A stretch of DNA of 64,000 bases, taken from positions 1,202 to 65,201 of the forward strand of contig JAHFFN010000002.1 of assembly GCA_023247915.1 (NCBI GenBank), given 5' to 3'. The stretch comes from Candidatus Omnitrophota bacterium. GTDB taxonomy: Bacteria; Omnitrophota; Gorgyraeia; 2-02-FULL-51-18. Below the pieces are notes generated by a model that saw only the letters and a program-made list of their open reading frames with translations, was not told the origin of the DNA and ran no database searches. This document shows, in pieces, positions 1 to 53,681 of the stretch (the first letter of the stretch is position 1; each line of letters opens with the position of its first letter). The translations under genes were made by a program, and so were the position numbers.

Positions 1-23
1 GAGAAGCTAAGCTAAGACATTAT

Positions 24-3000
24 GTGAGAATGGCTTCAATTCCTGTGACTCTGATTTTATTTTCGGGAGTAGCCCATCTTTTTGGTTTTTCTTTCTTACA
101 GATGGGTCTCCATAATGCCGGCGTCGGCGCCTTGCCATTTGCTCAATCTACTCATTGGGCGGGAGTTCTTGCGGGAATTCTTTTTGACCCGATTTGGCAC
201 ACTCTCCTACAGTCTTTGACTGTCCAAGGAATCCTCTCACCGTTTTTAACGGTATTTGTCCGGAGTTATGCGGCAAAGAATAAAGACAACCGGAACGCAC
301 TGTTTGACCAACGGTTGCTTCAGTCAGAAAATCTTCCAAAACGGCTTGGCTTGGAGATTCCCAGTAATATCCGCTGGAGCTGGGATGCCAATGAAATCAT
401 CAGATTTCTTCAAAACCCTCCGGCCGGTTTGTCCGATGAACAACTTTCCAATCTAAAACAGATTTTGTACCTGGTGTTGGCGTATGACCAGAGACAATAC
501 GCATGGCAGGCAAAAGTGATTCGAGCCACGGATATCCAGAGACAGCAGATTAAAGCGCTTATTATAGAGGATGTTGCGAGAAAGAGAGGTCCTCCGAATC
601 AATCAGAGATGAAAGTCGTTTCATTGGTGGTCGATGAATTAAAGAGCCAAGCTCGTGTTAAAACAATCGGCGGTGGAGATATTTGGAAAGGTTTAGGAAA
701 ATCATGGGCTTCCATGTGGATTGTGAACATCGAAATCACTACTTTCCTGCATCAGTTAGGTTTATTTGATGAAGCCGTTTCTTATTGGTTGGGCGTGAAA
801 TTAAACCTGATACGTATTGGTGAATTTGTCGAAGGTGCCAGCCACGGTCATTCCAGCCATTTTGAATCCGGAAGTTTCCTGGATACTTTTGTGAAGCCTG
901 TGGATGCCGGCGGTTATGGCGGTATGCTTGGACTTTTTCAAGGTTTAGTAAGAGATATCCAGTCGATTGGTAATTCTACCGAAGCACTTCATAACACTGT
1001 CCAATGGGCACAGAATATATTTGCTCGATTCACAGAACGCAGTTCCGATGAAGAAGAGCGTGTGAGAAACCAGACCAATCAAGAAGCTATTTTAGATGTG
1101 AATGCTAGAAAAGCTGCTGAAAAAGCCGAGGTTGAAGCAGAGAAAGAGAAGAAGAGAGTGGCGGATGAACAAGCCGCCAAGAAGGCCGACGACGAACAAA
1201 AAGCCAAAATGGAAGCCGAGGCGGAACAAAAGAGAATCGCAGATGCGAAAGCTAAGGTTGAACTGGACGCCAAGATGGCCGCGGATGCTAAGCGCGCGGC
1301 TGATGAAAAGACTGCCCAAGAAGCCAAGGAAGAAATTTTAAGAAAAGAGACCGAGCAAGCGGCTGCCGTCAAAAAAGCCGCTGAAGAAAAAGCAGCCGCA
1401 GATGCCAAAGCCAAAGAAGACATTTTGAAAGCGGAAGCCGAAGCCGCCAGAAAAGCGCAAGAAGCGAAGGCTGCCCAAGAAGCCAAAATAGCGGCCGAGC
1501 AAGCGGTGGAGGCCAAGCGCATTGCCGATGAAAAAGCGGCTCAAGAGGCTAAAGAAAAGGCCGAAAAATCAAAAAATCCTATTGATAAGGGCATTGAAGA
1601 TCTACAGCAGAAAATCAAAGTTATCCGCGAACTCCGTAAGTCTAACCAAATTCCAGCCGCGGAAGCGATCAAACAAATCGATCAAATCTTGAAAGAGATG
1701 GAGAAGCTCCGCAAGTCTTCCAATACTTCCGGTGTTTTGCCTGCCAATACGCCGGTGATGGTGGCTGCGCTCATGAATTCAACCGGCGTTCTTTCCGTGC
1801 CCGCAGAAGAAACGAACGATAAGCTTGCGGCGCTCGAAGCCGAAGCAAAACAACTTCGTGAAGAAGCCGTCAAAGCCGATGAGGAAGAGAAGGCTAAAGA
1901 AGCTTTTGTTGCCTACGTCGAACCTTTCACTAAAGATTCTGTGAAATTAGCTCGCGAAGTGAAGCAGTTAAAAGATTCCGTCGAAACGCCAGCGACTCCG
2001 GAAATTCGCGAGAATCTTAAGAAGAGAATCATTGGTATTATGATCGCCGAAGGCGTGGTCAACGGCGTGAATTCCGACGAGTACAAAGCCGCCAAGCTGA
2101 TGTTTGAGAAAAAATATTCCGGCAAAAAGAACCCGGTGATGGGTTCCGCTGATTTTGAGTTTTTACCCAAACAGATCGAAAAAGCTTTTAAACAACTTGG
2201 TTACACAAAGCCGCTTAAAGCACAGGAAGCAGAAAGAAACAGGATTGCCCAAGAAGTTCAAGCCGAGCAAAGATCCAAACGTTTAGCGGAACTTGCGGCA
2301 ATTGAAAAAGAAGCCAACGAGCTTCGAGAAGCGGCTCGTAAGGAAGACGCTGAACAGTCTGCTGCCAATCAAGCCAAAGTAAAAGCGGACGCAGAAGCCA
2401 ATAAAAATGGCGAAAAAGCTATCGCGGCCATAGGGGAGAAAGTTAAAGCCCAAAAAGAAAAAACCACTCAAGAAGAAGAGGCGAGGAAGAAAGCCGCCGC
2501 CGAAGCCGCCAAAAAAGCAGTCGATAAACAAGCGAAGCTGAAGGCCGAGCTTAAAGATTTAAAAAAAGAAGACATTAAGGCTTCCGAAAAAGCGAACAGA
2601 CTGCTCGGCAAAAAGGGTTACGACGCCGCCGAAGCTAAAGTCTCCGAAATTCATGCCCGGATGCAACAAGTAGAGATGCAGTTAGCGGCTTCCGGTTCCG
2701 GTGGAACAGTTTCAGGTGCTGGCCCCGGCCCCGGAAAACCTGTCGAAGAAGTTAAAACGCCCGCGCCTGTTGTTCCTGTCACCACGCCTGCGAAAGCAAA
2801 CACCACCACAGAGCCTCCTCAAGAAGAAAAAGTTTCAAAACCTGCTCCAGTAGCGAATGTGACTCCAGCTAAAACAGGAGAAGATCGCTCCGTCGAAATT
2901 CGCCGCGAAAGTAATGAATCCAAAGCCAAACAGCTCGCGGAACAAGCGGATCTGGTATTTGATTTCACTTATAGAGTGGTCGATAAAAACGGCCACGAAG

Positions 3001-6000
3001 TTCCCGTTCAGTTTTTGGAAGATAAAGGCTTTTTCAGTCCTTCTACTGTTCTCGCAGATGCCAAGCCGAATGACACACGAATTACTCATATCCGTGTCGG
3101 TAATAAAACCTATCGATTGGAAGAACTCTCCAAATTCGACAAAGACGGTTTTCAATTTCAGGTGAAATATACCGGTCGCGGAAATTCGGAATGGAAAGAT
3201 GAAGATTTCGAAAAAATCCGCATCCAGACAAAATTGAAAGGTACCGATTTCAGCCATATGGCAATCGATGAATTTGTTTCACGTTACATCGATCAAAATA
3301 TCGAACGGCGCATGGAATTAAATAAAGTCCAAATGGAAAAGCTGGGAATCAAAAAAGTCGCTTATCAGCGCATCGGACCTCGCGTCTCAGCAGTGGCGGG
3401 AGGGATGGAACATTTTACGTTGTCCGTGGAATTTAGTTTTGATTCTCATACAAGAGCATCCATCAAGGCTCAGAAAGAGGCGTTAAATTTTGCCTACGAA
3501 AAAGTATCTGTCACCACTTCGGATCTTCGCAAAGAAGCCAAGGCTTTGTACCTGAAACTTTGGAATCAGCGGCGTGCTTATGATGAGACTCTTGAACTTT
3601 GGCGCAAAACCTCGGAGCGTACCGAAGAGGACAAAACAGCCCGTCGTAGCGCTAATACTCAAAATCAAGACTTGCTGTATGAAGCCAAAACAGCGGAGAC
3701 TCTGGAAAACGAATATAAAAAGATGGTGGATCTCCAATCAACAATCAAGGAGCGTTTTGGACTTTCAGATCCGACTTATTTTGATTCTTGGGTGATTGGC
3801 ACAAATCCCCAGACGCTTGAAAACCTCAAAACTAATCCTGCGCAAACCAATGCTCATCAAACCCAATTAGCTGCCGCTCAAGTCAAAATTGACAAAGCTT
3901 CAGAACCTACCGCCGGCCGTCCGCGTTACAGTGCCGGAGTGGCTCTCGGAGGTTTTTGGCGCCACCAGGGAGGTGGAGCGACGGTGTATGCCAACCTGGA
4001 AATTTATGACTTTGGTTACACTAAGAACGCCAGAGAAACCGCCAAGGTCACGACGGATATTGATACGGCTCGTTTGGCGGCCGAGGTGATGAGACGTTCT
4101 TATGACATCCAACGTCAAGGCGCTGCTTTAGAGGATCTCAAAACACAGCTTGAAGAAAAACAAAAAGCGCTTGAAAAAGCGGAGTCTATTCGTCGGGCGA
4201 CGGCGCAAGGCGAAAGCATCGGCGTCTTGAATGAAACCCGCCAGCAAGCGGAGTTGACGGCTTATGGCTTAAGGCAGGAAATTGCTCGCCTTGAAGAAAT
4301 GACGGCTATTCTTGAAATTACAAAAGACAGAGAAAGCGCCAAACCTGCCAAGCCGGCCGATCCCAGTCTCCAAAATTTAAATTTTGAAGCGATTTTGACG
4401 CTTTCACAGAAAAATGTGTCGACGCCCGCGTCTCGAGGAGATCTAGAAAAGATCCGCAAGGCCTCCGGTTCTTTCCAAGAGCTTCAAACGGCGCTTTCCG
4501 CCCATCATAATGTCTGGCTATTAGAGGAAGCGAGACTTCAAGAAGACTTTATGCGTAGTGCCGGCATGGCTCGAGTCAAAGAATCCAACCCTCGTCTTTT
4601 CCTGACGGTACAGGCGCAGGTCGGCACCATCCAATACGTGACGGGTGGACTGATGCTGGAATGGACTAATTTTCAAAGAGAAAGAAACAAACACTTGAAG
4701 GCTATGGCGGAACTCGGCCCCCAGGCCGCCGCCAAGGCGCGTGAAGCTTTGGAAAGCCTATATAAGGAAGAACTTTATCGAGCAGGCCTTGAACACTATT
4801 CCATCCAGGCGGCCATGAAAACTCTCGAAGACAATATTAAAATCCTGGAAAAAAATCTGAGTGACATCAATGACGGCAAACATTCGTCTTTGGCGGTGAT
4901 GGAAGCCGAATTACTTCTCATGCAAGCCCAAAGCCTTTTAAAGCATTACAAATTTACCGCACAAATGACAGAACTTCGCATCAAAGAGCTCTCCGGGCTT
5001 TCTCCGGAGGAGCAAATCAGCCTCGCCGTCTCTCCTTCTACAACGACTCTTGAGACAGGTTTACCTGGCTATCATTCTGGCGCCAATGTGGAACGCGCTA
5101 ATCTTGTTCTAAAATTCGCCGAAGAAGAAGTTAAAGCCGCCAAAGCCAGACAAGGGATTAAATCGGCGGTAGGAGTGGGTTGGCCGACCGGGCTGATTGT
5201 TGATGTCAGTCAATTTTTAAATCGGGGTCTTTTTGAACCGGTTTTGAATCTCGCCAGAATCAAGACAGCCCGCCAAGAAACTCAGAAAAATTGGCAGATC
5301 ATGAGTGAGATTTCAAGAATTGACGCGCAAATGTCGGTGACTCAAGCTCAAAAAACTCAAGAACTGAGACTTTTTGAACTTCGCCAAGCCAAAGATTCGT
5401 CTGAAAAACTTCTGGTGGAAGTGAGTCGCATTTTGAATAACCTGGATCAGGAGATTCAAGAAACTCAGCAAAACATTGTGACCAGACCGGAAGATTTGAA
5501 TAATCTTTTGATCGAGCGCAATCATTATCTATGGTTTATGGATACTTTGAAATTACAAGGTATCGAAGCGGGCACACTTTTGGCGGCAGAAGAAAAAAAT
5601 CAACCGGCTCCTCAAGAGCAAAAAGTGCTGGTTGTGCCGACTCTTGCCCAGGCAATGGATCGATTGTCGGAAAATCCTCAAATCAAATCCCAAAGAGAAA
5701 AAATTGCACAGGAAAAACGTCGTCCCGGCGCCATTACTTGGGTAGATTCTACGGCAACTTTCCGGGTGAATTACGGCCTCATGGCGGAGACCCCGGGTCG
5801 CGATACGATGCAGAAAGTAATGAATCAAGAAGCCGGCATGCATATTCCTGCCGGTTCCCCGATCGGACTTTTTACTCTTAACGATGTATTGGTAGGACAG
5901 GAAAGAGAATATTTTAATAAGTCCACCAAGAAAGTGGAAGGGCAGGGAGGGATTCGCGCTGACGCCGGCTTGGAAGCGACGATTGATCTTTTTACCGGTG

Positions 6001-21000: not shown

Positions 21001-24000
21001 CTATCCGGTGGATGATAGACCAAAACATCCCCGTGGTGATGGGAACCACCGAAAAGACAGACATGGATCGCAAGGGAGGCAATTTAGGACTTCAGGTTGA
21101 TTTTGATGCCGTGAAAAGTCTTTTAGAGCAGACAGAGACTCCGCTGGATCCTCATGATCGTGCTATCTTGACAAATCTTTTGCAGACAAAAAACCTGGAA
21201 GCGCTTATTGAAATGGATAGTTTAAAAGAACAGCATGTGCGATTTAAAATTACCAATCTTGCGATTCTTCGTCAAATACTGATTCCTCAAATTGAGGAAT
21301 TGGCACAAGCCAGACTCGGCGGTCCGGATCAAATGAAAACTTTCCAAAGCTACGGACTTCCGGGAGGGCAAGGTGAGGTAAGACAGCAGGATTTTAATAC
21401 GAACAATGTGGGGGTAAATAAAACACTTTTACACCGGTATATGAAGGAACTAGTTGCGCGTGGAATCGTAACAGAAGAAGAGCTTTTCAAAATCATCAGT
21501 CCTGACATGATGGCCAAGGATCCTAAATTTGCCAATGGCAATTGGTATGGCATTCTTGAGGGCGCCATGGGATCCACTCTCTTGGCGTTTGGAAAATGGG
21601 TCGCCCAAAACCGGAAAGCTCAAGCGCTTTTGAAAGAAATGTTCGGGGTGGATCACTTGATCTACAAAAATTTCTACCGATCGAATACCAGTCACCCTAG
21701 ATTAAAAGAGCTGATGGCGCAAGGATGGAAGATTTATACCCGCGCCGATATTTTTACGCCTACCAAAGGATCGACGGATCATACGATTCAGACGGAATTG
21801 TTGGATTTCTTTAGTTTTGACACCAAACGATGGATATTAAAGGCCAATCAACCGGATCGTGATCCGCCCTTCATGGAAATTCCGGGACAGTTGTCGCCTT
21901 TCACCACAGCCGCGGATGAGTATCTTTCTGAAGTCGAGAATGTGGCCACGATTTTAAGAGGGTGCGGCATTCAATTTTTACGCCGCTTAGCCTATACCGG
22001 TGCCGGGATCGCTTGTGTGGCAGGCAGTCTTTTAGAAGGGGATGTGGAAATTTATATCACCAAAGAAACTAAGGATCCGGTGACTCCGGTTGATTTAACG
22101 GGACTGCCCTATAGAAATCAATTGCCTCAGGACGCCGATGGCCGCATTCATTTAAAAAATATTTTTGTGCGTGTGGATAAATATGGAGTCTTGACCTGGA
22201 TGCCGATTTTTGCTGAGCGTTTACAAAGAATCACAAAATCAAAATGGTTTCAGATGAACGCGAAAGATTGGCCCCAAGACATTCAAGCATTGTTTGATTC
22301 TAATAATCCCCAAGCGGTTGTCGGTTTAGCTGAGGCGATGAAAAGTAAATTTAGCGAGCTCAAAAAAACATCCACTCCTCCTACGGAAATACAAAAAGCT
22401 TACGACGAGATGGAGCATTTTCTCGCCTTGTTTGATTCGACCAGTAGCACCGGTGCGCGTCTTACAGAACCTTATTCAGATACAAAAATTATTGAAACGT
22501 TTAGGCGGCAATCAGAGGAAACAGCCGCTCTGCTTCCGGGTATTCTTACGGCTAAGAAGGCAGTGGAAGAAGCAACTAAGCTAGCAACTCCGATTTCTCC
22601 GGAAATAGTGGCTCAGGCGGCGCAAAAGACGCCCCTTCGGTATTCTTTTTATAGTGTTCCTAACAGAAGACATCCTCGAGGGATTTTTTCTCTTCAGGAA
22701 AATCCTGAGCGAGCCGGCAGAAGACCTTCTCAGTATGCGGGGGCAGGTACTTTCCAACCTTTCAACCCTAGTGGTTTCCATTATGGCAAGATTCCTCCTC
22801 ATGAACTGGTGTATGAAACCAAAGTTGAAGGTGTCCAGGCTAGCATTGTGACTAATGTGAGCCCCTTCGGCGAATCACACTTTTTGGTGGTTCCGGACAG
22901 ACAGAAAAATCTTCCTCAATATTTAGACGACCAAAGATACATCAGGCTTGCGTTGGGTATCCTCAAGAAAACCGAACGTGCCAATTTAAAATTTGGATTT
23001 AACAGCTTTGGAGGATTTGGATCCATTAATAATTTCCACTTGCAAGGTTTCTTCTATGGGGGCGATGGAGCTGACCCTGTTCAGTGGCAAAATCACGGGC
23101 GGTTACCGGTGGAAATGACAGGTCGTACACCCATCTATAACGAAAATGGAGTGGTTGTCTCAAAAGTTGCGAACTACCCCGCCAACGCACTGGCGTTTAG
23201 TTCGAAGAATATAGAGGCTCTTTCAGAGAAAATCATGCAATACATCACTATTTTAAATCAAAGTGATTTTGAGGAGGGTGGCGTTGTCAAGAAAGGTATT
23301 CCTTATAATATTTTATTCACCGACAACGAGGTGATAGTGATGCCCCGTCATTATGAATTTTCCAATGAATTTGGCGGCGGAACAGCGGTTTTAGAAATGT
23401 CCGGAGAGTTCATTATTACGGATCCGGCCATTATGGATAAGATTCAAGAAAAAAATATTTGGGATGAATTAGCAAGAACCACTATTCCTAAGGAACGGTT
23501 TGATCAAACAGTGGAGCAATGGCTTTTAGGTGTTAAAGGTAAAGGAGCAAGATTAGCCTCGAATACCTCGCGTGAGGAGATGCATCATATGCTTCAACGA
23601 GGACTCAAAAAATCAATGGAATCAATTAAAAAATCGGCGTGGGAAGAATTAGAAAAACCGGGCGCCACCCCTTCTAATGATGTGCTTATTATCACGGCTT
23701 CTACTGAAGCTCAAGCAGAACTTTATCGTAGACATGTGGAGTCCGTGCGCGGACTTTCGATTAGAAAAGACCAAGTGGTTTTGGTCATGGCAGATCCTTT
23801 AGATGAAGCTAAAAAAGGTCAACGGATTGGAAACGCGAGAGCTGTCAGCTATTCCTTGAGTGTTCTTTCGGATAGATGGTCTGATCTTCAAAGAGACAAC
23901 CCGCCTTTAAGAAATGTAGATTTTAATAAAGCCGTGATTACCATTATCCCCGCCGGCGGTCTTTCCTCCAGGTTTCCTTTGGGACTTCAGGCCGGATCAA

Positions 24001-27000
24001 AAATGCTTACAAAACTACCTATTTTCTTGCCTTTTGTCGGTCGGGTTTCAGAGAAAAAGAAAGCCGCCACTCTTTTTGATTTAGCGCTTCTATTTGGATA
24101 CCGGTTTGCTCAGAAACTGCGAAGTGAGGGGCGTGCAGGAATTGTGCATTTGGCCTCCGATTCGATTCTTATAACACCGGAACCTGTTATTTATAATGGC
24201 GTTACGATGTATGTAGCCCCTGGTACCGTGGAAGGCGCAGAAAGCCGTTTGGGTGTCACTTATGCGGATCCTGAAACTCGACTCGCTCGTATTTTTTACG
24301 AAAAACCAAATCAAGGAGAGATGGAAAAAGATGTGATCTTGAATAGTAGCCATACACTCAAAGAAAGACATCTAAGGCAACTTCGAGTTAATTCGGCGAC
24401 ATGGGTTTGGAGCCAAGAAGACGCAGAGCAACATCGGGTATATATTGAGGCGCTTAAAAATTTTGAAGAGTTTATTCAAGATCGGAAAAAAAGAGGAATT
24501 CCTGTATTTGAGGTAGATATTTCTCGTGAGTTTTTTACCCCACTCACGGCCAATTTGGAAGAATATTTACGCAGAAAAGGGGCTCTTACCGCCCCCCAAA
24601 AAGATTTTTACACGGATGTGTATGCTTATGTCACAAAAAATTTCCCTCCAAAAATTTATATCCCTCATTTTGACCCGCTTGAATCTTTTTATGAGGATTT
24701 GGGAACTCCGAAGCATTTCTGGAGCGTTGTCATGGCGGGTAATCATGTCAGACTTCCAGTGGAAGATGTTTTGGCAAGCGTACTCGGCTTGGAATCTTCC
24801 ACGAATGCCCAGATGGCTGTAACGGCTCGGAGAACTCGAGGAAGAGTCATTGATTCGATTGTAGGCGAAGACGCTGTGTTGGGTTCGAACTCTATTGTTA
24901 TAGACAGCACGCTTCTTGACAACTCGAATGTGGGTAAGGGCGCTATCGTTATAGGGTTAAAAAAGGCTCGCGTCAGCACTAACAATAATACGCTTTTAAT
25001 TCAGGTTCCCGTCGCTTATTTGGGTAAAAAAGATATGTCGGCATTTATTTATGCCGGCCGCGAGATTTTGACGGGTGTGATCAGTGATAAACATACCACG
25101 CTATTCCATCGCCAGGCCAAAGCATTGATCGCTAGCTGGACGGATCCTAGCGGAAATTCCTTAATGAAAACATTGCATATAGATGGTTATGACGATTGGT
25201 CACTTTTAGATTTGCCTATTTGGCCTGTGGCAGAAGTTTTCAATACAAGACTTATCAATTGGATGAATACCAGCAGAGAAGCTACTATGGAATATATCAA
25301 TGCCCCCAAAGTTTCCTTAAGAGAGATACTCAGCACTGTTGATTTTAATCGTATCGGTCAGGCATCTTCACAAGCTGCCAGACTATCATCCGAAAATTTC
25401 ACTAACTTTGTTCCGGATCTTTTGTATGGAAAGCGAATAGTTTTTGACGCGGGTACCCGTGAATTTCAATTTAAAATTACAAGAGATCTATTTGAAAAAA
25501 TTCAATCTCTGGGGGGCGGAACAGTTTACATTTCTTATCTCAATCCAAAAGGTGTTAAAAATTGGGTCGAAAAAGAGATTCAAACAATTCAATTAATCGA
25601 CGACGTTTATAAAATAGCATTGCCGGAAGGCGTAAACGATTTTACTTTATGTGTTAAAGCGGGCACTCAAGAATTTTGGCTTGAGCATAATATTCGAGCA
25701 GTTACAAGAGATCAATTGGTGTCGATTGGCCAAACCCCGTTCGAAGGACTTGAGTTTGAGGGCGCGAATATAGCAATAAGCCAAAAAGATCAGCAAATAA
25801 CTTTACCCGCAGACAGAGTACTCCGAGTGATTGCAAAGTTTGGTCGCAACCCGAAAACCGGTGAAAAGGGATTCCAAGATCCGGACAGAAATATCCAGGT
25901 TATTTTACACTATTTTGATCGTGGCTTAAAAACTTGGCGTAATTCACCCACGGTATTTGTAAGACAAACTTCCGGGCAGTATTACTTTGATGCTACGGTG
26001 CCGGAGAGCGCTGAACAAATAACCTTTGCTGTCTCTCCTTACGGTCGCATCATTAGCGCCACTGATTCTGACTCCGATCATGACAAATGGTTAGGGACAA
26101 ATTTGACGGTTGTCCAGCAGGCGGGAGCTCGCCTTTCCCAAGAAGAAACCATCCAACGAATCAAAGCTTCCGGGGCGGGAATTCTTACGGGGAATCAGGC
26201 TCAAGCATTTTCAAATACCGAATTCCTGGTGGCTACGAATAATTTGGCTGCTGTGGAGTCGTTGGATGTCGCGGCGCCGGTGAAACCCGTGTTTGCGTTA
26301 AATTTTGACGATATGTCCGTTTCCAATTTAAATCTGGATACAATTTTCGCGACCACGAGACTTTCTGACCTGACAATTCAAAGAATGTTGAAGAAGAAGC
26401 CGGAACTTGTTATTTTCCAGAAAGTGCCCGCTGTGAGTGCAACTAACGCAAACAAAGCCGACATTTTAAATCAAATTCAGACACAAATTAATCAAGCTCG
26501 TGCGGCTGGAGCCAAGGGAGTCAATCTCACTTATCAAATCTCAGTTCAAGAGCTCAAAGAGATCGCCGATAGAAATAAAGACATGCTGATCGCTGTGACC
26601 GGGGTGTCCGAGCGGGAGCTCCCGCTTGTCTATAGAATCGCTGAAAACGTGATTCCTTTTGTGACACCGGGATCCGTTGAGATGCTTCAAGAATTGTCCC
26701 CTTTGGAAAATATCGAAACAGTTTTGCGGAGAGAACTGTCCCATATTGATATTTTCGGAACCGCTTTCCTGTACGAACAAGGCATTACCCATCATTTGAT
26801 TGATTTCAAAAAACGATCCAACATGAGAGCTTGGTCGGCAGAAAAACTCGACGCAGACCCGGACGGCAGAACTCTGGAAAAGAAGATTAAGATTGTTACT
26901 ATTGAAGCATTTCGTTATGAGATTCTAATTCAATCAGAATACAACGATAAGATTTTTAAAGGGTATAAAGTCGATATTTTTCCTTACGATGCCTTAAGTC

Positions 27001-29117
27001 TGACCAGCCTCACCGGCAGAAAATCAATTTATTCCATGACCGTGCCCTTTGTCCCGGTGGACAACCCTCTTCCGCTTCATCTATCGGAAGCGATTCAACA
27101 CATCCGGAATAACCCCACCAACCCGGAACAAGCCGTCAAAGATCTGATCAGTTTATCGACAGGCGAGGCTAGACAAGTGTTTACCAATGGTTCTTTGCCG
27201 GCGATCATTGGTTTTATTGCGTTTGTGTCACCCAAATCACTCAGCAAAATCCGAAATTGGAATCCAGAAATCGTCGATTATTTACAAACACAAATAAACC
27301 TTGAAGATTTGATAGAGGTGTTTGTTCAGGGCAAAATAACCTCTTATCAGACAACCAAGCCCAACACCGGCATTGCGCTATCCCGTAATCTGCCGGACGG
27401 AAGAAAAGTATTTGGGGTGTTTAATTTTGCTCCTCAAAATGATCAAATTGTGGATGGAAAAGCTTGGTTTGAGGTGTTGCAGACACCCGAGCAATTACTT
27501 CCTCAAGGCCAAGAATTGATAGCACATAAGACCTACAATTGGGTCGAAGGCAAGTTTTATGACTCTTTTCATACATTTGAGAGCTTAAGGCAAAATCGCT
27601 GGCGCATTGGAGTTCCCGTGGAATTGATGACGGGCGAGAGACCTTGGCATTTCCAATGGCTTGAATTCAGACCCGCTCCTACAAATGGAGCCGCCGCCCG
27701 TCTTGCAGGCTTGGGTAATCTGGTAGCAGGCGTTGTTGGAATTTCCATTCTTCTTGGGGAGTGGGTGGCAGAACAATTAGCCAAGCAAACTCAAAAAGTG
27801 ACTGCCCAGAAAACTCAGCCCACGGTTGAGATACAAACGGCGCCCATTCAACAGATTTCAAAAATTGTGGTGGGGATTGTTCAGAAAGAAGGAATGCCTT
27901 TTGAACACCAGGAACACACCATTACCCAATGGCTCAGAGACCCCATGAATCATAGCGAAGAGTTTGCCGAGCAATTTCAGTTTGTTCGTGTTGACGATAC
28001 GGATGCGGCGAAGCGGGCATTTGTGGAACAACATCAAAACGCGCTGGCGGTTGTGCAGATTAATGTGCCGGCTAGTGAGGAAAACAGAGGTGAAATCCTC
28101 GAGCTTTTGATGAAAGCTTTTAGTGCTCGCCAAGAAAAATTAACCAGACAGTTGGCTCAGGCGGACGTTGTTTTGAAATTTTTAAGCGAAAACATTCAAA
28201 ATCCTAAGCATCATCTTCCAATCAGCATTTTACGTTCAGAGCTTCTGGCGTTATCTCGTCAATTCCCAGAACCACGTCCTTATCGTCAGGTTTATAACCA
28301 TGGAATTGTGTTGGTGAATGGTTCTTCTGAAGTGAAAGTGAGAGCTTCCGCTGAAAACGTCGCCCGTTCCATTAGCGGAGGGTTAACTGCTTCGGACGAA
28401 ACCGAAGCGCTTTCAACCATTCTTTCTGTGACGGAACAGATCGCCGATCAGGCTCAGTCGGGTGTTGGCGGCGCCAAAGGCCAGGGAAGTGAATGGATCG
28501 TTAAATTAATTAAATCCGTTCGTTCTGAGATTGAAAGAATGACCTCTGAATTTGCGGCTCCTGCGAATGGCGGCGTGTACACCTTGGTCACGCACGATAG
28601 CTTGTTTGCCGATGGCGCTAACTATGCCAAAGAAATCAAACGCTTTAAAGATGAAATTAAAGCCAAGCAAGATCGTGGGCAACTTCGAAATGTGACATTC
28701 CGCCACGTGCTCTTAATCACCGATGCGGATAAAGCCTATCTTTCCGGGAAGCTCCAAGGTCAATTTGATGAGGTAGTGATGGCTATTGGAGTGACCGATG
28801 TTGCTGAAATCCGCCAACATTACGGCACGATGCTGGGTAATCATTTTGTGATTGAGTCCGCTTCCGGTTCTCATGGTTTAACGATCGAAGCGTCCGATAA
28901 ACAAGCAGTGATAATCCAGCTTAAAGCCGGTGCCTCGTCTTACAAGATGCATAATGCCACCGCCGCGATTGCCTTGAAACCGAATGCGCAAGAGATTCAT
29001 TTCCCAGGTCTTTCAGGATCGGGCAATAGCTTTATATTCGAAGGTATTTTCACAAGAATCATGGAGTTGGTACGAAAGGCGCAGGACAACCTGACGACGG
29101 TTGGAAGCTCGGCCTAA
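24..29117 (+). CDS. giant multidomain envelope-spanning protein (9,697 aa); proposed trans-envelope glycan synthesis/export protein
   Basis: A single frame runs 29,094 nt with no stop. Every other-frame ORF inside it is under 240 aa and looks like an antisense or low-complexity shadow. Recognisable family motifs occur in this frame along its whole length (see sub-features). The start is GTG at 24 or ATG at 30. Codons 3-23 (GAA GCT AAG CTA AGA CAT TAT) contain no in-frame stop, so the true start could lie upstream of the window. Confidence 0.9.
   Translation: [9697 protein letters not shown]
36..110 (+). other. N-terminal signal-anchor helix of the giant protein with TonB/TolA-like S-x3-H-x6-L signature
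   Basis: The translation reads [29 protein letters not shown], a short basic N-terminus followed by a hydrophobic helix. S14 (nt 63-65), H18 (75-77) and L25 (96-98) match three of the four positions of the SHLS motif of TonB/TolA anchors; the fourth position is Leu29. Confidence 0.5.
1080..1580 (+). repeat. Ala/Glu/Lys-rich low-complexity helical tract (TolA domain II-like) inside the giant CDS; a second tract lies at ~2210-2650
   Basis: The translation reads [65 protein letters not shown]...[15 protein letters not shown]/AAR codon periodicity also generates spurious Ala/Ser-rich antisense ORFs (1079-1522, 1092-1319, 1338-1544). Confidence 0.7.
3260..7080 (+). other. array of roughly six TolC / outer-membrane efflux protein (OEP)-like repeats inside the giant CDS
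   Basis: Successive ~170-240-aa segments each show a short beta-like Gly/aromatic stretch followed by long heptad-like helices typical of OEP repeats. Examples are [31 protein letters not shown]...[42 protein letters not shown] and [44 protein letters not shown]...IKERFGL. Approximate segment starts are nt 3260, 3900, 4380, 5090, 5630 and 6340. Counted by eye only. Confidence 0.5.
10068..10607 (+). repeat. 2 x 270-nt (90-aa) in-frame tandem repeat inside the giant CDS
   Basis: Unit 1 (10068-10337) reads [83 protein letters not shown]. Unit 2 (10338-10607) reads [83 protein letters not shown]. The period is exactly 270 nt. Confidence 0.85.
12387..12446 (+). other. second transmembrane helix of the giant protein (return to the cytoplasm)
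   Basis: [20 protein letters not shown] is followed immediately by HIRRKGQ (positive-inside rule). No convincing hydrophobic helix is seen between aa ~90 and this point. Confidence 0.7.
13690..16230 (+). other. polytopic GT48 (FKS1 / callose synthase)-like glucan synthase module: TM cluster, ~500-aa cytoplasmic catalytic region, TM cluster
   Basis: The TM clusters lie at ~13690-14330 and ~15880-16230. The central region carries [36 protein letters not shown] (15328-15445), [13 protein letters not shown] (from 15614), PSEDIIFG (15687-15707) and GKSRPTS (~15763). These are collinear with the remembered GT48 blocks [37 protein letters not shown] / [12 protein letters not shown] / LSEDIFAG / GKGRDVG. 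The comparison is from memory, not computed. Confidence 0.5.
17180..18540 (+). repeat. six to seven degenerate ~70-90-aa protein repeats inside the giant CDS
   Basis: The recurring core is D-x-x-G-x-[LF]-R-[TA]-x-x-[EQ]-[IL]-[ILV]-D. Instances are [57 protein letters not shown] and [19 protein letters not shown]. Weaker copies are [37 protein letters not shown] and [18 protein letters not shown]. Confidence 0.55.
18700..19700 (+). other. fucokinase-N-type NDP-sugar pyrophosphorylase-like domain 1 (degenerate) with left-handed beta-helix tail
   Basis: [18 protein letters not shown] resembles the DP..riGSGGATLnAL block, and [11 protein letters not shown] resembles the vwV.stD.ll block. A hexapeptide-like run follows: [32 protein letters not shown]. 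The glycine-rich GG.s.R.P block is not conserved ([11 protein letters not shown]). Confidence 0.45.
20330..21700 (+). other. UDPGP-family UTP-sugar-1-phosphate uridylyltransferase (UGPase-like) domain
   Basis: [11 protein letters not shown] (20375-20405) matches the LNGGLGTSMG block. [13 protein letters not shown] matches P.[18 protein letters not shown] matches fvsN.DNLga.vD. [14 protein letters not shown] (21049-21090) matches t.Kt.aD.KGG. Confidence 0.6.
22640..23500 (+). other. GDP-L-galactose / GDP-D-glucose phosphorylase (VTC2/GDPGP1)-like HIT-superfamily domain
   Basis: [23 protein letters not shown] (22851-22900) and [21 protein letters not shown] (22995-23057) are collinear with the remembered VTC2 blocks INVSPIEYGHVLLIP....LPQ and GYNSLGAFATINHLHFQAYY. 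The first His of H-x-H-x-Q is Asn here; the second (nucleophile) His is retained. Confidence 0.65.
23680..24990 (+). other. fucokinase-N-type GDP-sugar pyrophosphorylase-like domain 2 with left-handed beta-helix tail
   Basis: Matching blocks are [21 protein letters not shown]...VVLVMADP...[38 protein letters not shown] and [11 protein letters not shown]. A hexapeptide-like run follows: [39 protein letters not shown]. Confidence 0.6.
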
Positions 29118-29133
29118 GCAGCACAAGTTTTAG

Positions 29134-29229
29134 AACCACATTTCGCGTGGGGAGCAGTTCTTCACAAAAAGAACTGTCTAGCCAAAACCGATCCCCCGGA
29201 CCTCACGCGAAATGTGGTTTTATTTTTTA
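29134..29229 (+). terminator. compound rho-independent terminator after the giant gene
   Basis: A perfect 16-bp inverted repeat, AACCACATTTCGCGTG (29134-29149) / CACGCGAAATGTGGTT (29204-29219), encloses an inner 8-bp hairpin CAGTTCTT (29155-29162) / AAGAACTG (29169-29176). The T-tract TTATTTTTT follows. Confidence 0.7.
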
Positions 29230-29236
29230 AGCGTCA

Positions 29237-29318: not shown

Positions 29319-29960
29319 ATGTCACATTTTCAAAGCCAGGCTATGTCTTTATGGGAATTGATTGTCTCCGGCGGGTATTGCATGATTTTTCAGGGGCTCT
29401 TGTCGGTGGCGGCGGTCGCCTTGATCATTCATCACTTTAGAATCGTGAAACCTGACAAGCTTGTGCCGGTGGATTTCTCGGAAAATCTTATTTCATTACT
29501 TCAAAAAAAACAGGTTGAAAAGGCCTCCGCGATTTGCCGCCAACAGCAAAATCTTATTTCTGCTATCACCTTAAGTGTGCTCGGCCGGATATCCAAAGGA
29601 AAGCTCACGCCGGCTCAGATTGAGAGCACGGTGCAGGTGGAGGGGAAAACACATACCGAGAAACTCTGGCAAAACCTGACGTATCTGGGTGATATTGCGG
29701 TGATTGCGCCGCTGGTGGGTCTTTTAGGCACGATTTTGGGCATGATCAGCGCTTTTCACTATTTCAAGGCCGGCTCCATTCATCCGGGCATTTTGACCCA
29801 GGGTCTAGCCAAGGCGATGATCAACACCGTTTTTGGGCTCATTGTCGCGGTGCTTTGCTTAGTTTTTTATTCGTATTTCCGTGGGAAGGTTAGCGCGACC
29901 GTGACTCGGGCTGAGACCGTGGTTTCCGACATCGTCCAAGCGTTATCCGCCACGTCATGA
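29319..29960 (+). CDS. MotA/TolQ/ExbB-family proton channel
   Basis: 213 aa with three hydrophobic helices and the family block LTYLGDIAVIAPLVGLLGTILGMISAF...GLAKAMINTVFGLIVAV. It has a good RBS, and its stop overlaps the next start (ATGA). Confidence 0.9.
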   Translation: MSHFQSQAMSLWELIVSGGYCMIFQGLLSVAAVALIIHHFRIVKPDKLVPVDFSENLISLLQKKQVEKASAICRQQQNLISAITLSVLGRISKGKLTPAQIESTVQVEGKTHTEKLWQNLTYLGDIAVIAPLVGLLGTILGMISAFHYFKAGSIHPGILTQGLAKAMINTVFGLIVAVLCLVFYSYFRGKVSATVTRAETVVSDIVQALSATS

Positions 29961-30376
29961 TTAATTTTAAGCAAAGCGAATCCGTCCGATCCCTGCCGCC
30001 GGTTCAGGTGGTCGCGCTGATCGACATTCTTTTTGTCACACTCTCATTTTTCATGGCAATGTTCCTGCACTTTAATTTTGAATCCGAACTGGGCATTTCC
30101 GTGCCGCAGGCCAGCTCCTCCGCAGAAGCCAAAGAGGCTTTTCAGGAAATCGTGATCAATGTATCGCGCGACGGCCTGATTGTGGTCAATCAAAAAACAC
30201 TGAGTCCGGAACAACTAGCGTCGCTTCTACAGAAAACAGCCGAGATTTATCCGGCGCAGTCGGTAGTCGTGCGCGCGGATCAAAAAACTTATCATGAATC
30301 GGTGGTGCGAGTTTTGGATATTTGCGCAAAGGCAAAAATTTGGAATATCTCATTTGCCACAATGAAAGAAAAATAA
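29957..30376 (+). CDS. ExbD/TolR-family biopolymer transport protein
   Basis: 139 aa. The N-terminal anchor VQVVALIDILFVTLSFFMAMFL is typical of ExbD/TolR. It is translationally coupled to the upstream channel gene. Confidence 0.9.
   Translation: MINFKQSESVRSLPPVQVVALIDILFVTLSFFMAMFLHFNFESELGISVPQASSSAEAKEAFQEIVINVSRDGLIVVNQKTLSPEQLASLLQKTAEIYPAQSVVVRADQKTYHESVVRVLDICAKAKIWNISFATMKEK

Positions 30377-50239: not shown

Positions 50240-53681
<3,442 letters not shown>

What the first reader, a model, noticed from the sequence alone, without database searches (positions are those of the whole stretch)
24..29117. 29.1-kb uninterrupted ORF encoding a 9,697-aa mosaic protein that appears to span cytoplasm, inner membrane, periplasm and outer membrane
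One frame runs from nt 24 to 29117 without a stop, about 45 percent of the window. The translation gives an ordered architecture. It starts with an N-in signal anchor (aa 6-29), two Ala/Glu/Lys-rich helical tracts and about six TolC/OEP-like repeats. A ~1,700-aa beta-rich region with YD-like and tandem repeats follows. Then comes a single TM helix followed by HIRRKGQ (aa ~4122-4149). The last ~5,500 aa alternate polytopic membrane blocks with sugar-nucleotide enzyme domains and a GT48-like glycosyltransferase. The topology is self-consistent: everything between TM1 and TM2 would be outside the cytoplasm, and every nucleotide-dependent domain inside. I know of no characterised protein that fuses an outer-membrane-channel-like array, an energy-transducer-like anchor, a processive glucan-synthase-like module and substrate-supply enzymes in one chain. 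The hypothesis is a single-gene trans-envelope polysaccharide synthesis/export machine. Very large ORFs have been reported in genomes of candidate phyla such as Omnitrophota. The surrounding gene content would be compatible with that, but it does not prove it.
Basis: partly seen in the sequence, partly recalled or inferred. Interest (0 to 1): 0.92.

Follow-up and report, generated by a model that had tools for sequence, protein, structure and literature searches.

The report
Giant bacterial glucan-synthase-like multi-enzyme membrane protein
The 29-kb open frame is real, but it is only the last 87% of a 33-kb gene for an 11,114-residue membrane protein built around a distant bacterial relative of the fungal/plant beta-glucan synthase, fused to enzymes that make activated sugars; it belongs to a large unnamed family of giant proteins seen so far only in metagenomes.

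Summary
The stop-free frame is confirmed, but it is open at the window's left edge. Codon usage is uniform and other assemblies carry identical pieces, so the gene is real.

Supported:
- a GT48 (FKS1-like) synthase core flanked by two TM blocks (profile versus PDB FKS1 E 1e-10; 11 of 13 FKS1 active-site residues kept);
- a tail of sugar-1-phosphate nucleotidyltransferase-type modules (fucose-pyrophosphorylase-like twice, UDP-glucose pyrophosphorylase-like, HIT-like);
- Ala/Glu/Lys tracts, a tandem ~89-aa repeat, and the TM followed by HIRRKGQ.

Not supported: TolC/OEP identity (sub-threshold only; five long helical hairpins) and YD repeats.

The core has 543 relatives, many of them 2-8-kaa giants, with variable ends.

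Also found: a junction motif [AG]ARL[AST], 8 copies against 0.12 expected, shared with relative P0028. ExbB-ExbD lie adjacent, but a strong terminator intervenes.

Verdict: a new variant of the published giant multi-enzyme membrane proteins. A complete trans-envelope machine is not shown.

The parts
1..29117 (+). 3' 87% of a giant gene. The frame is open from window base 3 and the stop is at 29115-29117. The full gene on the source contig encodes 11,114 aa and starts about 4,227 nt upstream of the window.
36..101 (+). Internal hydrophobic helix (window-ORF aa 5-26) carrying S14-x3-H18. One or two further hydrophobic stretches follow, up to aa 79.
   Evidence: the motif was read directly from the sequence
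1041..2723 (+). Two Ala/Glu/Lys-rich helical tracts (aa ~340-900), similar in composition to TolA domain II.
   Evidence: weak NCBIfam TolA match at E 0.12
2721..2882 (+). Pro/Thr/Val-rich spacer (aa 900-953).
   Evidence: read from the sequence
4062..7112 (+). Array of five long alpha-helical hairpins (aa 1347-1437, 1523-1657, 1739-1857, 1984-2094, 2249-2363), separated by stretches the model could not fold.
9264..10490 (+). Tandem ~89-aa protein repeat in the beta-rich region (aa 3081-3489). There is no repeat at the DNA level.
11043..12383 (+). Juxtamembrane domain (aa 3674-4120), probably extracytoplasmic, conserved in family members P0001, P0012, P0024, P0029, P0070 and P0095.
12396..12452 (+). 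Single TM helix (aa 4125-4143) followed by HIRRKGQ...RKK, with 6 Lys/Arg in the next 15 residues. Orientation is predicted as outside to inside.
12471..13643 (+). Conserved cytoplasmic domain of unknown function (aa 4150-4540), shared with P0012, P0022, P0024, P0095 and L004.
13698..14324 (+). First polytopic block, about 6 TM helices (aa 4559-4767).
14331..15893 (+). GT48 (FKS1/callose-synthase)-like glycosyltransferase domain (aa 4770-5290). It carries GK..Q, D-A-N, E-x-IF, QR, YGH, ED and H-x-E..GK-x-R.
15894..16946 (+). Second polytopic block, 7-10 TM or interface helices (aa 5291-5641). It would form the putative glycan channel together with block 1.
17361..18593 (+). Four copies of a small repeat with the signature D..G.LR[TA]..E..D (aa ~5780-6190). 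Function unknown.
18645..19973 (+). Nucleotidyltransferase plus left-handed beta-helix module 1, a paralogue of module 2 (aa 6208-6650). Fucose_pyrophosphorylase scores 27.5 bits, below the cutoff.
20325..22187 (+). UDP-glucose pyrophosphorylase (UDPGP)-like module (aa 6768-7388) with LDGGLG...GR and PGGHG loops.
22803..23582 (+). HIT-superfamily module, GalT/Apa2/GDPGP1-like (aa 7594-7853). It has NFHLQ in place of HxHxQ.
23673..25328 (+). Fucose-pyrophosphorylase/GlgC-like nucleotidyltransferase plus LbH module 2 (aa 7884-8435). This is the only Pfam hit above its curated cutoff (62.7 bits against 34).
25389..27692 (+). Two modules of unknown function (aa 8456-8700 and 8706-9223), delimited by junction motifs.
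27702..29114 (+). Gly-rich hydrophobic helix (aa 9227-9245; weak VIT1 match) and a C-terminal 450-aa region of unknown function.
12555..12569 (+). Junction motif copy 1: AARLS (aa 4178-4182).
16293..16307 (+). Motif copy 2: GARLA (aa 5424-5428). It lies in a basic loop inside TM block 2. The aligned positions are AVRLS in P0001 and GARN in fungal FKS, so this copy may be a feature of the core and not a junction.
20133..20147 (+). Motif copy 3: AARLA (aa 6704-6708), between module 1 and the UDPGP-like module.
22452..22466 (+). Motif copy 4: GARLT (aa 7477-7481), after the UDPGP-like module.
23544..23558 (+). Motif copy 5: GARLA (aa 7841-7845), between the HIT-like module and module 2.
25374..25388 (+). 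Motif copy 6: AARLS (aa 8451-8455), directly after module 2.
26124..26138 (+). Motif copy 7: GARLS (aa 8701-8705).
27693..27707 (+). Motif copy 8: AARLA (aa 9224-9228), directly before the hydrophobic helix.
29131..29232 (+). Very stable hairpin followed by a U-run, directly after the stop codon. It looks like an intrinsic terminator.
29319..30376 (+). exbB/tolQ-like (29319-29960) and exbD/tolR-like (29957-30376) genes, with their own promoter-like site at 29237-29265. No tonB or tolA gene was found in the window.

Best explanation
The window holds the last 9,697 codons of a genuine, single 11,114-codon bacterial gene. Its product is a giant inner-membrane protein of an unnamed family found widely in metagenomes.

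The family's invariant stem is: a juxtamembrane outer domain, one TM, a ~400-aa cytoplasmic domain, ~6 TM, a GT48 (FKS1/callose-synthase)-like GT-A domain, then 7-10 TM.

Shown:
- homology of the core to FKS1;
- retention of 11 of 13 FKS1 active-site residues;
- the TM-GT-TM layout;
- four fused modules of sugar-1-phosphate nucleotidylyltransferase or HIT type, downstream of the core.

Inferred:
- The cytoplasmic tail makes NDP-sugar, most simply UDP-glucose.
- The core polymerises it and threads the glycan through its own TM channel, as cellulose synthase and FKS1 do.
- The >4,000-aa region upstream of the TM at aa 4125 lies outside the cytoplasm. It consists of Ala/Glu/Lys and Pro-rich spacers, a helical-hairpin array, beta-rich repeats and the conserved juxtamembrane domain. 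It receives, guides or anchors the polymer in the envelope.
- The recurring [AG]ARL[AST] motif marks the junctions between tail modules, either as linkers or as processing sites.
For: Real gene:
- the frame is free of stops while the other frames hold 295-655;
- codon usage is uniform along the ORF;
- the source contig has an 11,114-aa call that lies inside the contig;
- other assemblies carry identical or near-identical pieces: L002 at 100% DNA identity, a Logan contig with the last 1,903 aa, and P0010 at 99.5% over aa 5371-5782.

GT48-like core:
- the profile of the giant plus P0001 hits a fungal 1,3-beta-glucan synthase at E 2e-9 in 5.8 billion sequences;
- it hits solved FKS1 (7xe4) at E 1e-10 over GT residues 935-1252, and BcsA at E 2.6e-3;
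- E851, K1082, D1102, N1104, E1155, E1173, H1195, E1221, D1222, K1246 and R1248 (residue list from PMC10499315) are conserved in alignment A3;
- TM blocks lie on both sides.

Family:
- 543 relatives at E<=1e-3 and 73 at E<=1e-30, many of 2-7.9 kaa with an internal core;
- the conserved stem is aa ~3600-5650;
- L004 is a further ORF of more than 21 kb with the same core.

Tail enzymes:
- PF07959 at 62.7 bits against a cutoff of 34;
- the UDPGP-like profile hits solved UGPases at E 8e-7;
- the HIT-like module matches ATP_transf, HIT and DUF4922 across its alignment.

Junction motif:
- 8 copies against 0.12 expected, encoded by varied codons;
- the same motif occurs 6 times in P0028.

Outside-to-inside orientation of the TM at aa 4125-4143: 6 Lys/Arg in its C-terminal flank.
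Against: - Pfam Glucan_synthase and Glyco_trans_2_3 are below their curated cutoffs on the giant itself (11.8 and 23.2 bits).
- Two FKS1 active-site positions differ (D1080 to G, K1172 to D).
- Both AlphaFold models failed (pLDDT 42.6 and 32.8), so neither a channel nor any fold is shown.
- The count of TM helices in block 2 is ambiguous (7-10). The cytoplasmic location of the tail therefore rests on its enzyme content and not on a topology prediction.
- The product sugar and linkage are unknown.
- The first 1,417 aa were not seen.
- There are no expression data.
- The tail of relative L004 carries unrelated domains (transglutaminase, fn3), so 'substrate supply' is not a universal family feature.
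Confidence: 0.6

Rival explanations
1. The gene encodes a polyprotein. The product is cut at the recurring [AG]ARL[AST] sites into a membrane synthase and several separate soluble enzymes. The giant chain would be a delivery and stoichiometry device, not the working machine. This is compatible with the enzymology of the best explanation; it differs only on the mature form.
For: - The motif occurs 8 times against 0.12 expected, and only in the part after the TM at aa 4125.
- Six copies fall in gaps between modules that were delimited independently.
- Synonymous codons differ between copies, so selection acts on the peptide.
- The same motif recurs in the non-homologous tail of P0028 and, as ARM/ARL, in P0012.
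- Other members have their own recurring junction words. SSAG occurs in P0001 and also three times in the separate downstream gene of the same locus. SSSP occurs 8 and 6 times in P0016 and P0033.
- West-Roberts et al. propose cleavage of giant proteins but had no cleavage points.
Against: - No protease domain was detected in the visible 9,697 aa.
- One copy lies inside the synthase's TM block, at a position partly conserved in fungal FKS.
- The motif matches no cleavage site known to me.
- A flexible-linker or docking role explains the same statistics.
- Exact-word scans find such motifs in only a minority of long family members.
Confidence: 0.3
2. One reading: one chain forms a complete trans-envelope polysaccharide machine. 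It would have an outer-membrane TolC-like duct made of about six OEP repeats, an energy-transducing anchor, an inner-membrane synthase and the substrate-supply enzymes.
For: - Five long helical hairpins lie at the claimed place.
- Near-full-length but very weak OEP matches occur in two of them.
- TolC, VceC and ST50 appear among the non-significant fold hits.
- A helix with S-x3-H is followed by TolA-like Ala/Glu/Lys and Pro-rich spacers.
- exbB-exbD lie directly downstream, and no tonB or tolA gene is in the window.
Against: - OEP never approaches its cutoff (8-13 bits against 22).
- Three hairpins give nothing.
- There are no internal sequence repeats and no relatives.
- No OMF protein appears among PDB sequence hits even at E 10.
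- The fold search has no hit at E<=0.001, and its TM-scores are 0.07-0.2 on a model with pLDDT 43.
- No beta-barrel is shown.
- No TonB_C or TolA_C domain is present.
- The S-x3-H helix is internal, with about 1,417 aa before it.
- A hairpin of -50 kcal/mol plus a U-run, followed by a promoter-like site, separates the giant from exbB.
Confidence: 0.07
3. The protein is a surface attachment or predation protein, like the 'Archaeovorin' giants of Omnitrophota. On this view the large outer region binds or remodels another cell's wall, and the enzymatic parts serve that interaction instead of building the cell's own polymer.
For: - Published giants combine TM helices, glycosyltransferases and extracellular adhesion-like regions.
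- The outer region here is long, repeat-bearing and almost free of cysteine.
- Family tails and heads vary strongly, as is typical for interaction proteins.
Against: - No glycoside hydrolase, peptidase, dockerin, TSP3 or SecA_DEAD domain was found in the visible part.
- The conserved element of the family is the synthase stem, not an adhesin.
- Neighbouring genes encode heme synthesis, cytochrome c biogenesis and acyl-CoA dehydrogenase. That is richer than the reduced metabolism reported for giant-rich Omnitrophota.
- The taxonomy is unresolved.
Confidence: 0.12
4. The long frame is an assembly artefact or a decayed fusion of several genes.
For: - The data come from a metagenome.
- One database fragment (P0010) joins an unrelated FtsW-like N-terminus to aa 5371-5782, showing that chimeric contigs of this locus exist in other assemblies.
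Against: - 9,697 codons (11,114 on the contig) contain no stop, and codon usage and GC1-3 are uniform.
- Other assemblies carry identical pieces: a longer window assembly, the 75.6-kb ENA contig, a Logan contig and k141 contigs.
- Relatives share the same order of stem elements.
Confidence: 0.02

Closest known systems
Fungal FKS1 / plant callose synthase (CAZy GT48), solved structures 7xe4 and 7yuy
   Same: Both have a cytoplasmic GT-A domain between two polytopic TM blocks. Profile-level homology is E 1e-10. Eleven of 13 active-site residues are kept, including D1102/N1104 (D-A-N), E1221/D1222 (ED) and K1246/R1248.
   Different: The giant is bacterial. The core is embedded in an 11-kaa chain, with more than 4,000 aa outside the membrane before it and a ~4,000-aa enzyme tail after it. 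Pfam PF02364 is below its cutoff. D1080 and K1172 are not conserved. The giant has almost no cysteine, whereas Fks1 activity needs two extracellular disulfides. As far as I know, no characterised bacterial GT48 exists, and none turned up in the library search.
Bacterial cellulose synthase system BcsA-BcsB-BcsC
   Same: It uses a processive inner-membrane synthase whose TM domain is the export channel, plus periplasmic and TPR/outer-membrane partners that guide the polymer across the envelope. There is weak profile similarity to BcsA (E 2.6e-3). A TPR/YfiO-like gene lies two genes downstream of the giant.
   Different: The Bcs parts are separate proteins and belong to GT2. In the giant, the outer parts are fused to the synthase and show no detectable similarity to BcsB or BcsC. 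No PilZ/c-di-GMP module was found.
Giant multi-enzyme membrane proteins of Omnitrophota (West-Roberts et al. 2023, 'Archaeovorins'; Nielsen & Lui 2026, class 1 'multi-enzyme metabolic clusters')
   Same: The protein is at least 10 kaa, with about 17 or more TM helices (their median at >=10 kaa is 16). It carries several unrelated enzyme families, including sugar-metabolism modules, and most of it is invisible to Pfam.
   Different: Those papers do not mention a GT48/glucan-synthase core, ExbB or junction motifs. No SecA_DEAD, C39/S8 peptidase, starch-synthase or GT1 modules were seen here. Membership of Omnitrophota is untested.
TolA / TonB with ExbB-ExbD (TolQ-TolR) motors
   Same: The giant has a TM helix with S-x3-H, long Ala/Glu/Lys-rich and Pro-rich periplasm-spanning spacers, and exbB-exbD next door.
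   Different: The helix is internal and not N-terminal. There is no TonB_C or TolA domain III. The NCBIfam TolA match is only E 0.12 and is driven by composition. A terminator separates the genes.

Membership tests
GT48 (1,3-beta-glucan synthase, FKS/CalS) | Match to Pfam Glucan_synthase (PF02364) at the gathering score | tested here: not met
   11.8 bits, E 0.067, against a cutoff of 37.2, for aa 5138-5301. The relative P0001 does carry a precomputed PF02364 hit.
GT48 (1,3-beta-glucan synthase, FKS/CalS) | Statistically significant homology of the GT domain to bona fide FKS proteins | tested here: met
   The profile of the giant plus P0001 hits a fungal FKS at E 2e-9 among 5.8e9 sequences and PDB FKS1 at E 1e-10 over residues 935-1252.
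GT48 (1,3-beta-glucan synthase, FKS/CalS) | Conserved active-site residues (E851, D1080, K1082, D1102, N1104, E1155, K1172, E1173, H1195, E1221, D1222, K1246, R1248 of S. cerevisiae Fks1) | tested here: met
   Eleven of 13 are identical in alignment A3 and the HMMER alignment. D1080 becomes G and K1172 becomes D (residue list).
GT48 (1,3-beta-glucan synthase, FKS/CalS) | GT domain sandwiched between polytopic TM regions that form the glucan channel | tested here: inconclusive
   Hydropathy shows about 6 TM before and 7-10 after the GT domain. The structure model failed (pLDDT 32.8), so no channel is shown.
GT48 (1,3-beta-glucan synthase, FKS/CalS) | Makes beta-1,3-glucan from UDP-glucose | not testable with these tools
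   This needs an enzyme assay. A fused UDPGP-like module is suggestive only.
TolC / outer membrane factor (Pfam OEP) | Two OEP repeats per protomer detectable by PF02321 | tested here: not met
   E 0.09 (13 bits against a cutoff of 22) for the tile, and E 2.3 and 3.1 for two separate hairpin segments. Three other hairpins give no hit.
TolC / outer membrane factor (Pfam OEP) | Fold: long alpha-hairpins continuous with a beta-barrel | tested here: inconclusive
   The model has pLDDT 42.6. It shows five long hairpins but the stretches between them are unfolded. Foldseek gives no hit at E<=0.001, and TolC-family entries appear only at E 0.4-1.6 with TM-score at most 0.2.
TonB / TolA energy transducers | N-terminal TM anchor with the S-x3-H (SHLS-type) motif | tested here: inconclusive
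   S14-x3-H18 is present in the helix at aa 5-26, but the helix is internal, with about 1,417 aa before it. The motif definition comes from my own knowledge.
TonB / TolA energy transducers | C-terminal TonB_C or TolA domain III | tested here: not met
   No such Pfam or NCBIfam match anywhere in the 9,697 aa.
TonB / TolA energy transducers | Genetic linkage to exbB/exbD (tolQ/tolR) | tested here: met
   MotA_ExbB at E 1.3e-25 and ExbD (PF02472) lie directly downstream. However, a terminator-like hairpin and a separate promoter-like site intervene.
Rhs / YD-repeat proteins | Repeated YD motifs detectable by Pfam RHS_repeat | tested here: not met
   No RHS/YD family appears at E<=1 in any tile.
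Sugar-1-phosphate nucleotidylyltransferases | Match above the curated cutoff to a nucleotidyltransferase family | tested here: met
   PF07959 Fucose_pyrophosphorylase scores 62.7 bits against a cutoff of 34, covering profile positions 4-415 of 418. The UDPGP-like profile hits solved UDP-glucose pyrophosphorylases at E 8e-7.
Published giant multi-enzyme membrane proteins (Nielsen & Lui class 1) | At least 10,000 aa, TM-anchored, with several distinct enzyme families and none dominating by copy number | tested here: met
   11,114 aa, about 17 hydrophobic helices, and GT48-like, UDPGP-like, HIT-like and two PF07959-like modules.
Published giant multi-enzyme membrane proteins (Nielsen & Lui class 1) | Encoded by a member of phylum Omnitrophota | not testable with these tools
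   The source genome is absent from the genome collection. The neighbours' protein clusters carry no names.
Archaeovorin-type giants (West-Roberts et al.) | SecA_DEAD domain and N-terminal C39/S8 peptidase, with GT, methyltransferase, glycoside hydrolase and NUDIX content | tested here: inconclusive
   None of these was found in the visible 9,697 aa. The N-terminal 1,417 aa could not be read.

The most novel reading that the evidence does not exclude
One polypeptide physically spans the Gram-negative envelope. A TolA-like S-x3-H helix would couple it to the adjacent ExbB-ExbD proton motor. The helical-hairpin array would form a TolC-like duct from a single chain. The GT48-like core, fed by its own fused NDP-sugar factories, would extrude a glucan through that duct. 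The ARL junction motifs would be the first readable 'cleavage code' of a bacterial giant polyprotein.
Probability: 0.06. Interest if true: 0.9.

Novelty: new variant of a known kind. Interest (0 to 1): 0.6.

Why it matters
- GT48 synthases are the echinocandin target in fungi and make callose in plants. They are regarded as eukaryotic enzymes. A populous bacterial family with a GT48-like core, here fused to its presumed substrate-supply enzymes, bears on the origin of that enzyme class and on unknown bacterial envelope polymers.
- The conserved stem gives a handle for classifying hundreds of otherwise dark giant ORFs.
- The recurring junction motifs (ARL here and in P0028; SSAG and SSSP in other members) address a gap stated in the giant-gene literature: nobody knows where, or whether, these chains are cut. 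That question becomes directly testable by proteomics.

Tried and rejected
- **Whole-protein and N-half searches.** The N-terminal half timed out.
- **aa 1150-2450.** No homologue was found, no internal sequence repeats, and nothing relevant in PDB sequences even at E 10.
- **Structure prediction.** AlphaFold2 on aa 1200-2399 as a single sequence gave pLDDT 42.6. On the GT core with a 3-row alignment it gave pLDDT 32.8. Both models are unusable. No fold search was run on the second.
- **NCBIfam.** A scan of all tiles gave essentially nothing.
- **Genome collection.** The scan with the core alignment matched 75 patterns but confirmed no relative. An exact 40-mer from the window start gave 0 hits. 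The upstream 4.25 kb and the organism therefore remain unknown.
- **Source contigs.** The DNA of the ENA and Logan source contigs could not be fetched because the files are too large.
- **Sample accessions.** They do not appear in the paper library.
- **Metagenome scan.** The first attempt, with an 11-row alignment, was too diverse for the pattern generator. The 4-row version gave one locus.
- **HIT-like profile.** No PDB sequence match. The profile of the two paralogous nucleotidyltransferase modules matched only the LbH region of gamma-carbonic anhydrases, weakly.
- **DNA-level explanations.** There are no DNA tandem repeats in the ORF. A DNA-level explanation of the ARL motif was rejected because the codons differ between copies.
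- **Co-transcription with exbBD.** Judged unlikely because of the terminator-like hairpin.
- **Generality of junction motifs.** An unbiased exact 4-mer scan shows that such motifs are not universal in the family.

Full report
**1. The observation**

The ORF listing gives 24..29117, 9,697 aa, and the translation has a single terminal stop. Over the same span the other five frames contain 295-655 stops. In-frame codon usage correlates 0.68-0.87 with 20 neighbouring genes in each of ten 1,000-codon segments, against at most 0.37 for shifted frames, and GC1/GC2 match the neighbours. This is coding sequence, with no compositional seam that would suggest a chimeric join.

The start is wrong, however. 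There is no in-frame stop between window base 3 and the GTG at 24. Looking up the adjacent ExbB protein by exact sequence found the same neighbourhood on a 75,564-bp ENA contig. There the upstream gene's product is 11,114 residues and ends at the same distance (202 nt) from exbB. A second look-up near the right end of the window shows that this contig stops at window coordinate ~62,379. It therefore reaches ~13.2 kb to the left of base 1. The gene start, ~4,227 nt left of base 1, lies well inside the contig.

So the window cuts off the first ~1,417 codons, and the real gene is 33.3 kb. The 'N-in signal anchor' at aa 6-29 is an internal helix. Pieces from other assemblies are identical or nearly so: L002 and L003 at 100% DNA identity, a Logan contig with the last 1,903 aa, and P0010 at 99.5% over aa 5371-5782.

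**2. Anatomy (window-ORF numbering)**

Hydropathy gives the following hydrophobic helices:

| Residues | Feature |
|---|---|
| aa 6-24 | helix; one or two weaker hydrophobic stretches follow, up to aa 79 |
| aa 80-4124 | nothing hydrophobic |
| aa 4125-4143 | strong single helix; its C-flank HIRRKGQ...RKK has 6 Lys/Arg in 15 residues |
| aa 4559-4767 | about six helices |
| aa 5291-5641 | seven to ten helices |
| aa 9227-9245 | one Gly-rich helix |

- *aa ~340-900* are 18-20% Ala, 13-15% Lys and 14% Glu, with internal similarity. A Pro/Thr/Val-rich spacer follows at aa 900-953.
- *aa 1150-2450* have no detectable relatives and no internal sequence repeats. A single-sequence AlphaFold2 model is poor overall (pLDDT 42.6). 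It places five long helical hairpins, with local pLDDT up to ~80, at aa 1347-1437, 1523-1657, 1739-1857, 1984-2094 and 2249-2363.
- *aa 3081-3489* contain a tandem ~89-aa repeat (E 7e-19), with no repeat at the DNA level.
- *Pfam and NCBIfam* see almost nothing in the first 4,500 aa.

**3. The core**

A search with the C-terminal half found a single relative among 5.8 billion proteins. This is P0001, 6,585 aa, which carries a precomputed Glucan_synthase (PF02364) hit. It aligns to aa 4700-5402 at E 5e-50.

A two-sequence profile of this region gave:
- a fungal 1,3-beta-glucan synthase at E 2e-9;
- solved yeast FKS1 structures (7xe4, 7yuy) at E 1e-10 over GT-domain residues 935-1252;
- BcsA at E 2.6e-3.

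On the giant alone, Pfam scores stay below their cutoffs: Glyco_trans_2_3 at E 6.7e-5 and Glucan_synthase at E 0.067.

The active-site list for Fks1 comes from its cryo-EM paper (PMC10499315). Using it with the three-way alignment A3 and the HMMER alignment, the giant keeps E851, K1082, D1102, N1104, E1155, E1173, H1195, E1221, D1222, K1246 and R1248. D1080 and K1172 are replaced.

The domain lies between the two TM blocks, as in FKS1 and cellulose synthases. I conclude that this is a distant but probably active GT48-like processive synthase. A structure model built from the only three rows I was allowed to use failed (pLDDT 32.8), so the channel is inferred and not shown.

**4. The family**

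An exhaustive HMMER search of 1.84 billion representatives with the core profile found 543 proteins at E<=1e-3, 285 at E<=1e-10 and 73 at E<=1e-30. Many are 2,000-7,900 aa long, with the core in the interior.

BLAST of the giant against the best 150 shows a conserved stem at aa ~3600-5650: juxtamembrane outer domain, TM, ~400-aa cytoplasmic domain, six TM, GT domain, TM block. Everything before ~aa 2400 is unique. The tail modules are shared patchily: the UDPGP-like module with P0012 and P0036, and the HIT-like module with P0001 and P0008.

A metagenome scan returned one more locus, L004. Its whole 20,954 nt are a single open frame running off both ends, with the same stem (E 8e-108) but a different tail containing transglutaminase and fn3 domains.

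The family therefore has a conserved synthase stem with variable heads and tails. Neither of the two giant-gene preprints mentions glucan synthase, PF02364, ExbB or TolC. A library search for bacterial GT48 found nothing relevant.

**5. The tail**

- *aa 7884-8435* match Fucose_pyrophosphorylase over nearly the whole model at 62.7 bits, against a cutoff of 34. There is a weak GlgC match as well.
- *aa 6208-6650* are a paralogue of that module at 27.5 bits.
- *aa 6768-7388*, aligned with the P0012 and P0036 segments, match solved UDP-glucose pyrophosphorylases at E 8e-7. The module shows the LDGGLG...GR and PGGHG loops.
- *aa 7594-7853* belong with the P0001 and P0008 segments that hit ATP_transf, HIT and DUF4922. 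P0001's copies are annotated GDPGP1_C.

All four are enzymes of nucleotide-sugar chemistry, which fits a substrate-supply role and a cytoplasmic location. About 1,250 aa at the C-terminus and ~550 aa after the TM block remain unassigned. The latter contain four copies of a D..G.LRT repeat.

**6. Junction motif**

[AG]ARL[AST] occurs eight times against 0.12 expected (maximum 3 in 500 shuffles). All copies lie after the TM at aa 4125, and they are encoded by different synonymous codons. Six copies fall in the gaps between modules that were delimited independently. One copy (aa 5424) sits in a basic loop of the core, where P0001 has AVRLS and fungal FKS has GARN, so it may be a core feature.

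The same motif occurs six times in P0028 (0.12 expected), whose tail is not BLAST-similar to the giant's tail. It also occurs as ARM/ARL in P0012.

Other members have their own words:
- SSAG three times in P0001 and three more times in the separate 2,493-aa gene that follows it;
- SSSP eight and six times in P0016 and P0033.

An exact-word scan shows this is not universal in the family. West-Roberts et al. proposed cleavage of giant proteins but noted that cleavage points were unknown. These motifs are candidates, although a linker role fits the data equally well, and no protease domain is visible in the part I could read.

**7. Surroundings**

A hairpin of -50.4 kcal/mol (z = -8.1; 0 of 200 shuffles as stable) followed by a U-run sits directly after the stop codon. 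A promoter-like site (10 of 12 matches) and a Shine-Dalgarno sequence then precede exbB. Downstream lie:
- ExbB and ExbD;
- a TPR/YfiO-like protein, a VWA protein and a GT4 glycosyltransferase;
- housekeeping genes: a hemD-hemE fusion, ferrochelatase, acyl-CoA dehydrogenase, ThiC, oxoacid:ferredoxin oxidoreductase, ResB/CcsA and LytB.

No tonB or tolA gene is present in the window. The helix at aa 5-26 carries S-x3-H and is followed by TolA-like and TonB-like spacers. That is suggestive, but the evidence is weak: the helix is internal, there is no TonB_C or TolA C-domain, and the genes are probably not co-transcribed.

The organism could not be named. The heme and cytochrome c biogenesis genes look richer than the reduced metabolism reported for giant-rich Omnitrophota, so that assignment stays open.

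**8. The TolC claim**

- Pfam OEP reaches only E 0.09 for the tile, and E 2.3 and 3.1 for two hairpin segments, although each match covers nearly the full model. The other three hairpins give nothing.
- No outer-membrane factor appears among PDB sequence hits even at E 10.
- Foldseek with the low-confidence model gives no hit at E<=0.001. TolC, VceC and ST50 appear at E 0.4-1.6, alongside F-BAR, spectrin and FadA, with TM-scores of at most 0.2.

The safe statement is 'an array of long alpha-hairpins of unknown fold'.

**9. Verdict**

The gene is real and larger than reported. The start, the TolC and YD identities, the placement of the 'transducer' anchor and the claim of no precedent do not hold.

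Membrane-anchored multi-enzyme giants of at least 10 kaa, with a median of 16 TM helices and with sugar-metabolism modules, are a published class. This one is a new variant, defined by a GT48-like synthase stem that is shared by hundreds of metagenomic proteins.

The most likely mechanism is a processive glycan synthase and exporter fed by its own fused NDP-sugar enzymes, with a huge outer domain that handles or anchors the polymer (confidence ~0.6). Processing at the junction motifs is an open and testable addition (~0.3). A complete single-chain trans-envelope machine driven by the proton motive force is not excluded but is unlikely (~0.06).

Noticed in passing
window 29131-29232 (+): An unusually long and stable hairpin (-50.4 kcal/mol, z -8.1), with an inner second stem-loop, is followed by UUUUAUUUUUU directly after the giant's stop codon. 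The simple terminator scan missed it because of its large loop.
   Followed up: yes
window 12555-27707, eight sites; also P0028, P0012, P0001 and L001:19953-27434, P0016, P0033: Short peptide words recur at module junctions and differ between family members. They are [AG]ARL[AST] in the giant and P0028, SSAG in P0001 and in the separate gene that follows it, and SSSP in P0016 and P0033. They are candidate linker or processing signals.
   Followed up: partly
window 24-29114 (+), whole ORF: Cysteine is depleted ten-fold. The giant has 11 Cys in 9,697 aa (0.11%), with only one in the first 4,200 aa. The 27 neighbouring genes have 1.10%.
   Followed up: partly
window 17361-18593 (+), aa ~5780-6190: There are four copies of a small repeat with the signature [FL].D..G.LR[TA]..E..D between the TM block and the first nucleotidyltransferase module. 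No family match was found.
   Followed up: no
window 29319-35345 (+): The gene string exbB, exbD, TPR/YfiO-like, VWA, GT4 glycosyltransferase lies directly downstream of the giant. No tonB or tolA gene occurs anywhere in the window.
   Followed up: partly
window 35342-37300 (+): A single 652-aa gene fuses uroporphyrinogen-III synthase (HemD) with uroporphyrinogen decarboxylase (HemE). Ferrochelatase follows it.
   Followed up: no
window 52099-53685 (-): The TPP-binding subunit of a 2-oxoacid:ferredoxin oxidoreductase carries C-terminal CBS domains. A separate CBS-only gene lies at 55532-56011.
   Followed up: no
P0010 (453 aa, from another assembly): This database protein joins 41 residues of an unrelated FtsW/RodA-like N-terminus to giant aa 5371-5782 at 99.5% identity. 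It is probably a chimeric short contig and a caution for fragment-based analyses of this locus.
   Followed up: partly
L004:1-20954 (JGI contig Ga0209340_1000135): All 20,954 nt of this locus form one open frame of 6,984 codons that runs off both ends. It is another giant gene with the same synthase stem, but its tail contains transglutaminase-like and fn3 domains.
   Followed up: partly
L001:1-29948 (JGI contig Ga0171657_1000182): P0001 is open to the contig edge and therefore truncated at the 5' end. Only 4 nt after it comes a 2,493-aa gene with NTP_transferase and adenylate-kinase domains, and then a further ORF of more than 766 aa. In this relative the 'tail' is split over several giant genes.
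   Followed up: partly
window 50240-52201 (-) versus 52099-53685 (-): The longest ThiC ORF (653 aa, GTG start) overlaps the upstream gene by 103 nt. The ENA annotation calls ThiC at 617 aa, so the true start is probably internal.
   Followed up: no
window 62795-62866 (-): A single tRNA gene is the only Rfam match in the window.
   Followed up: no
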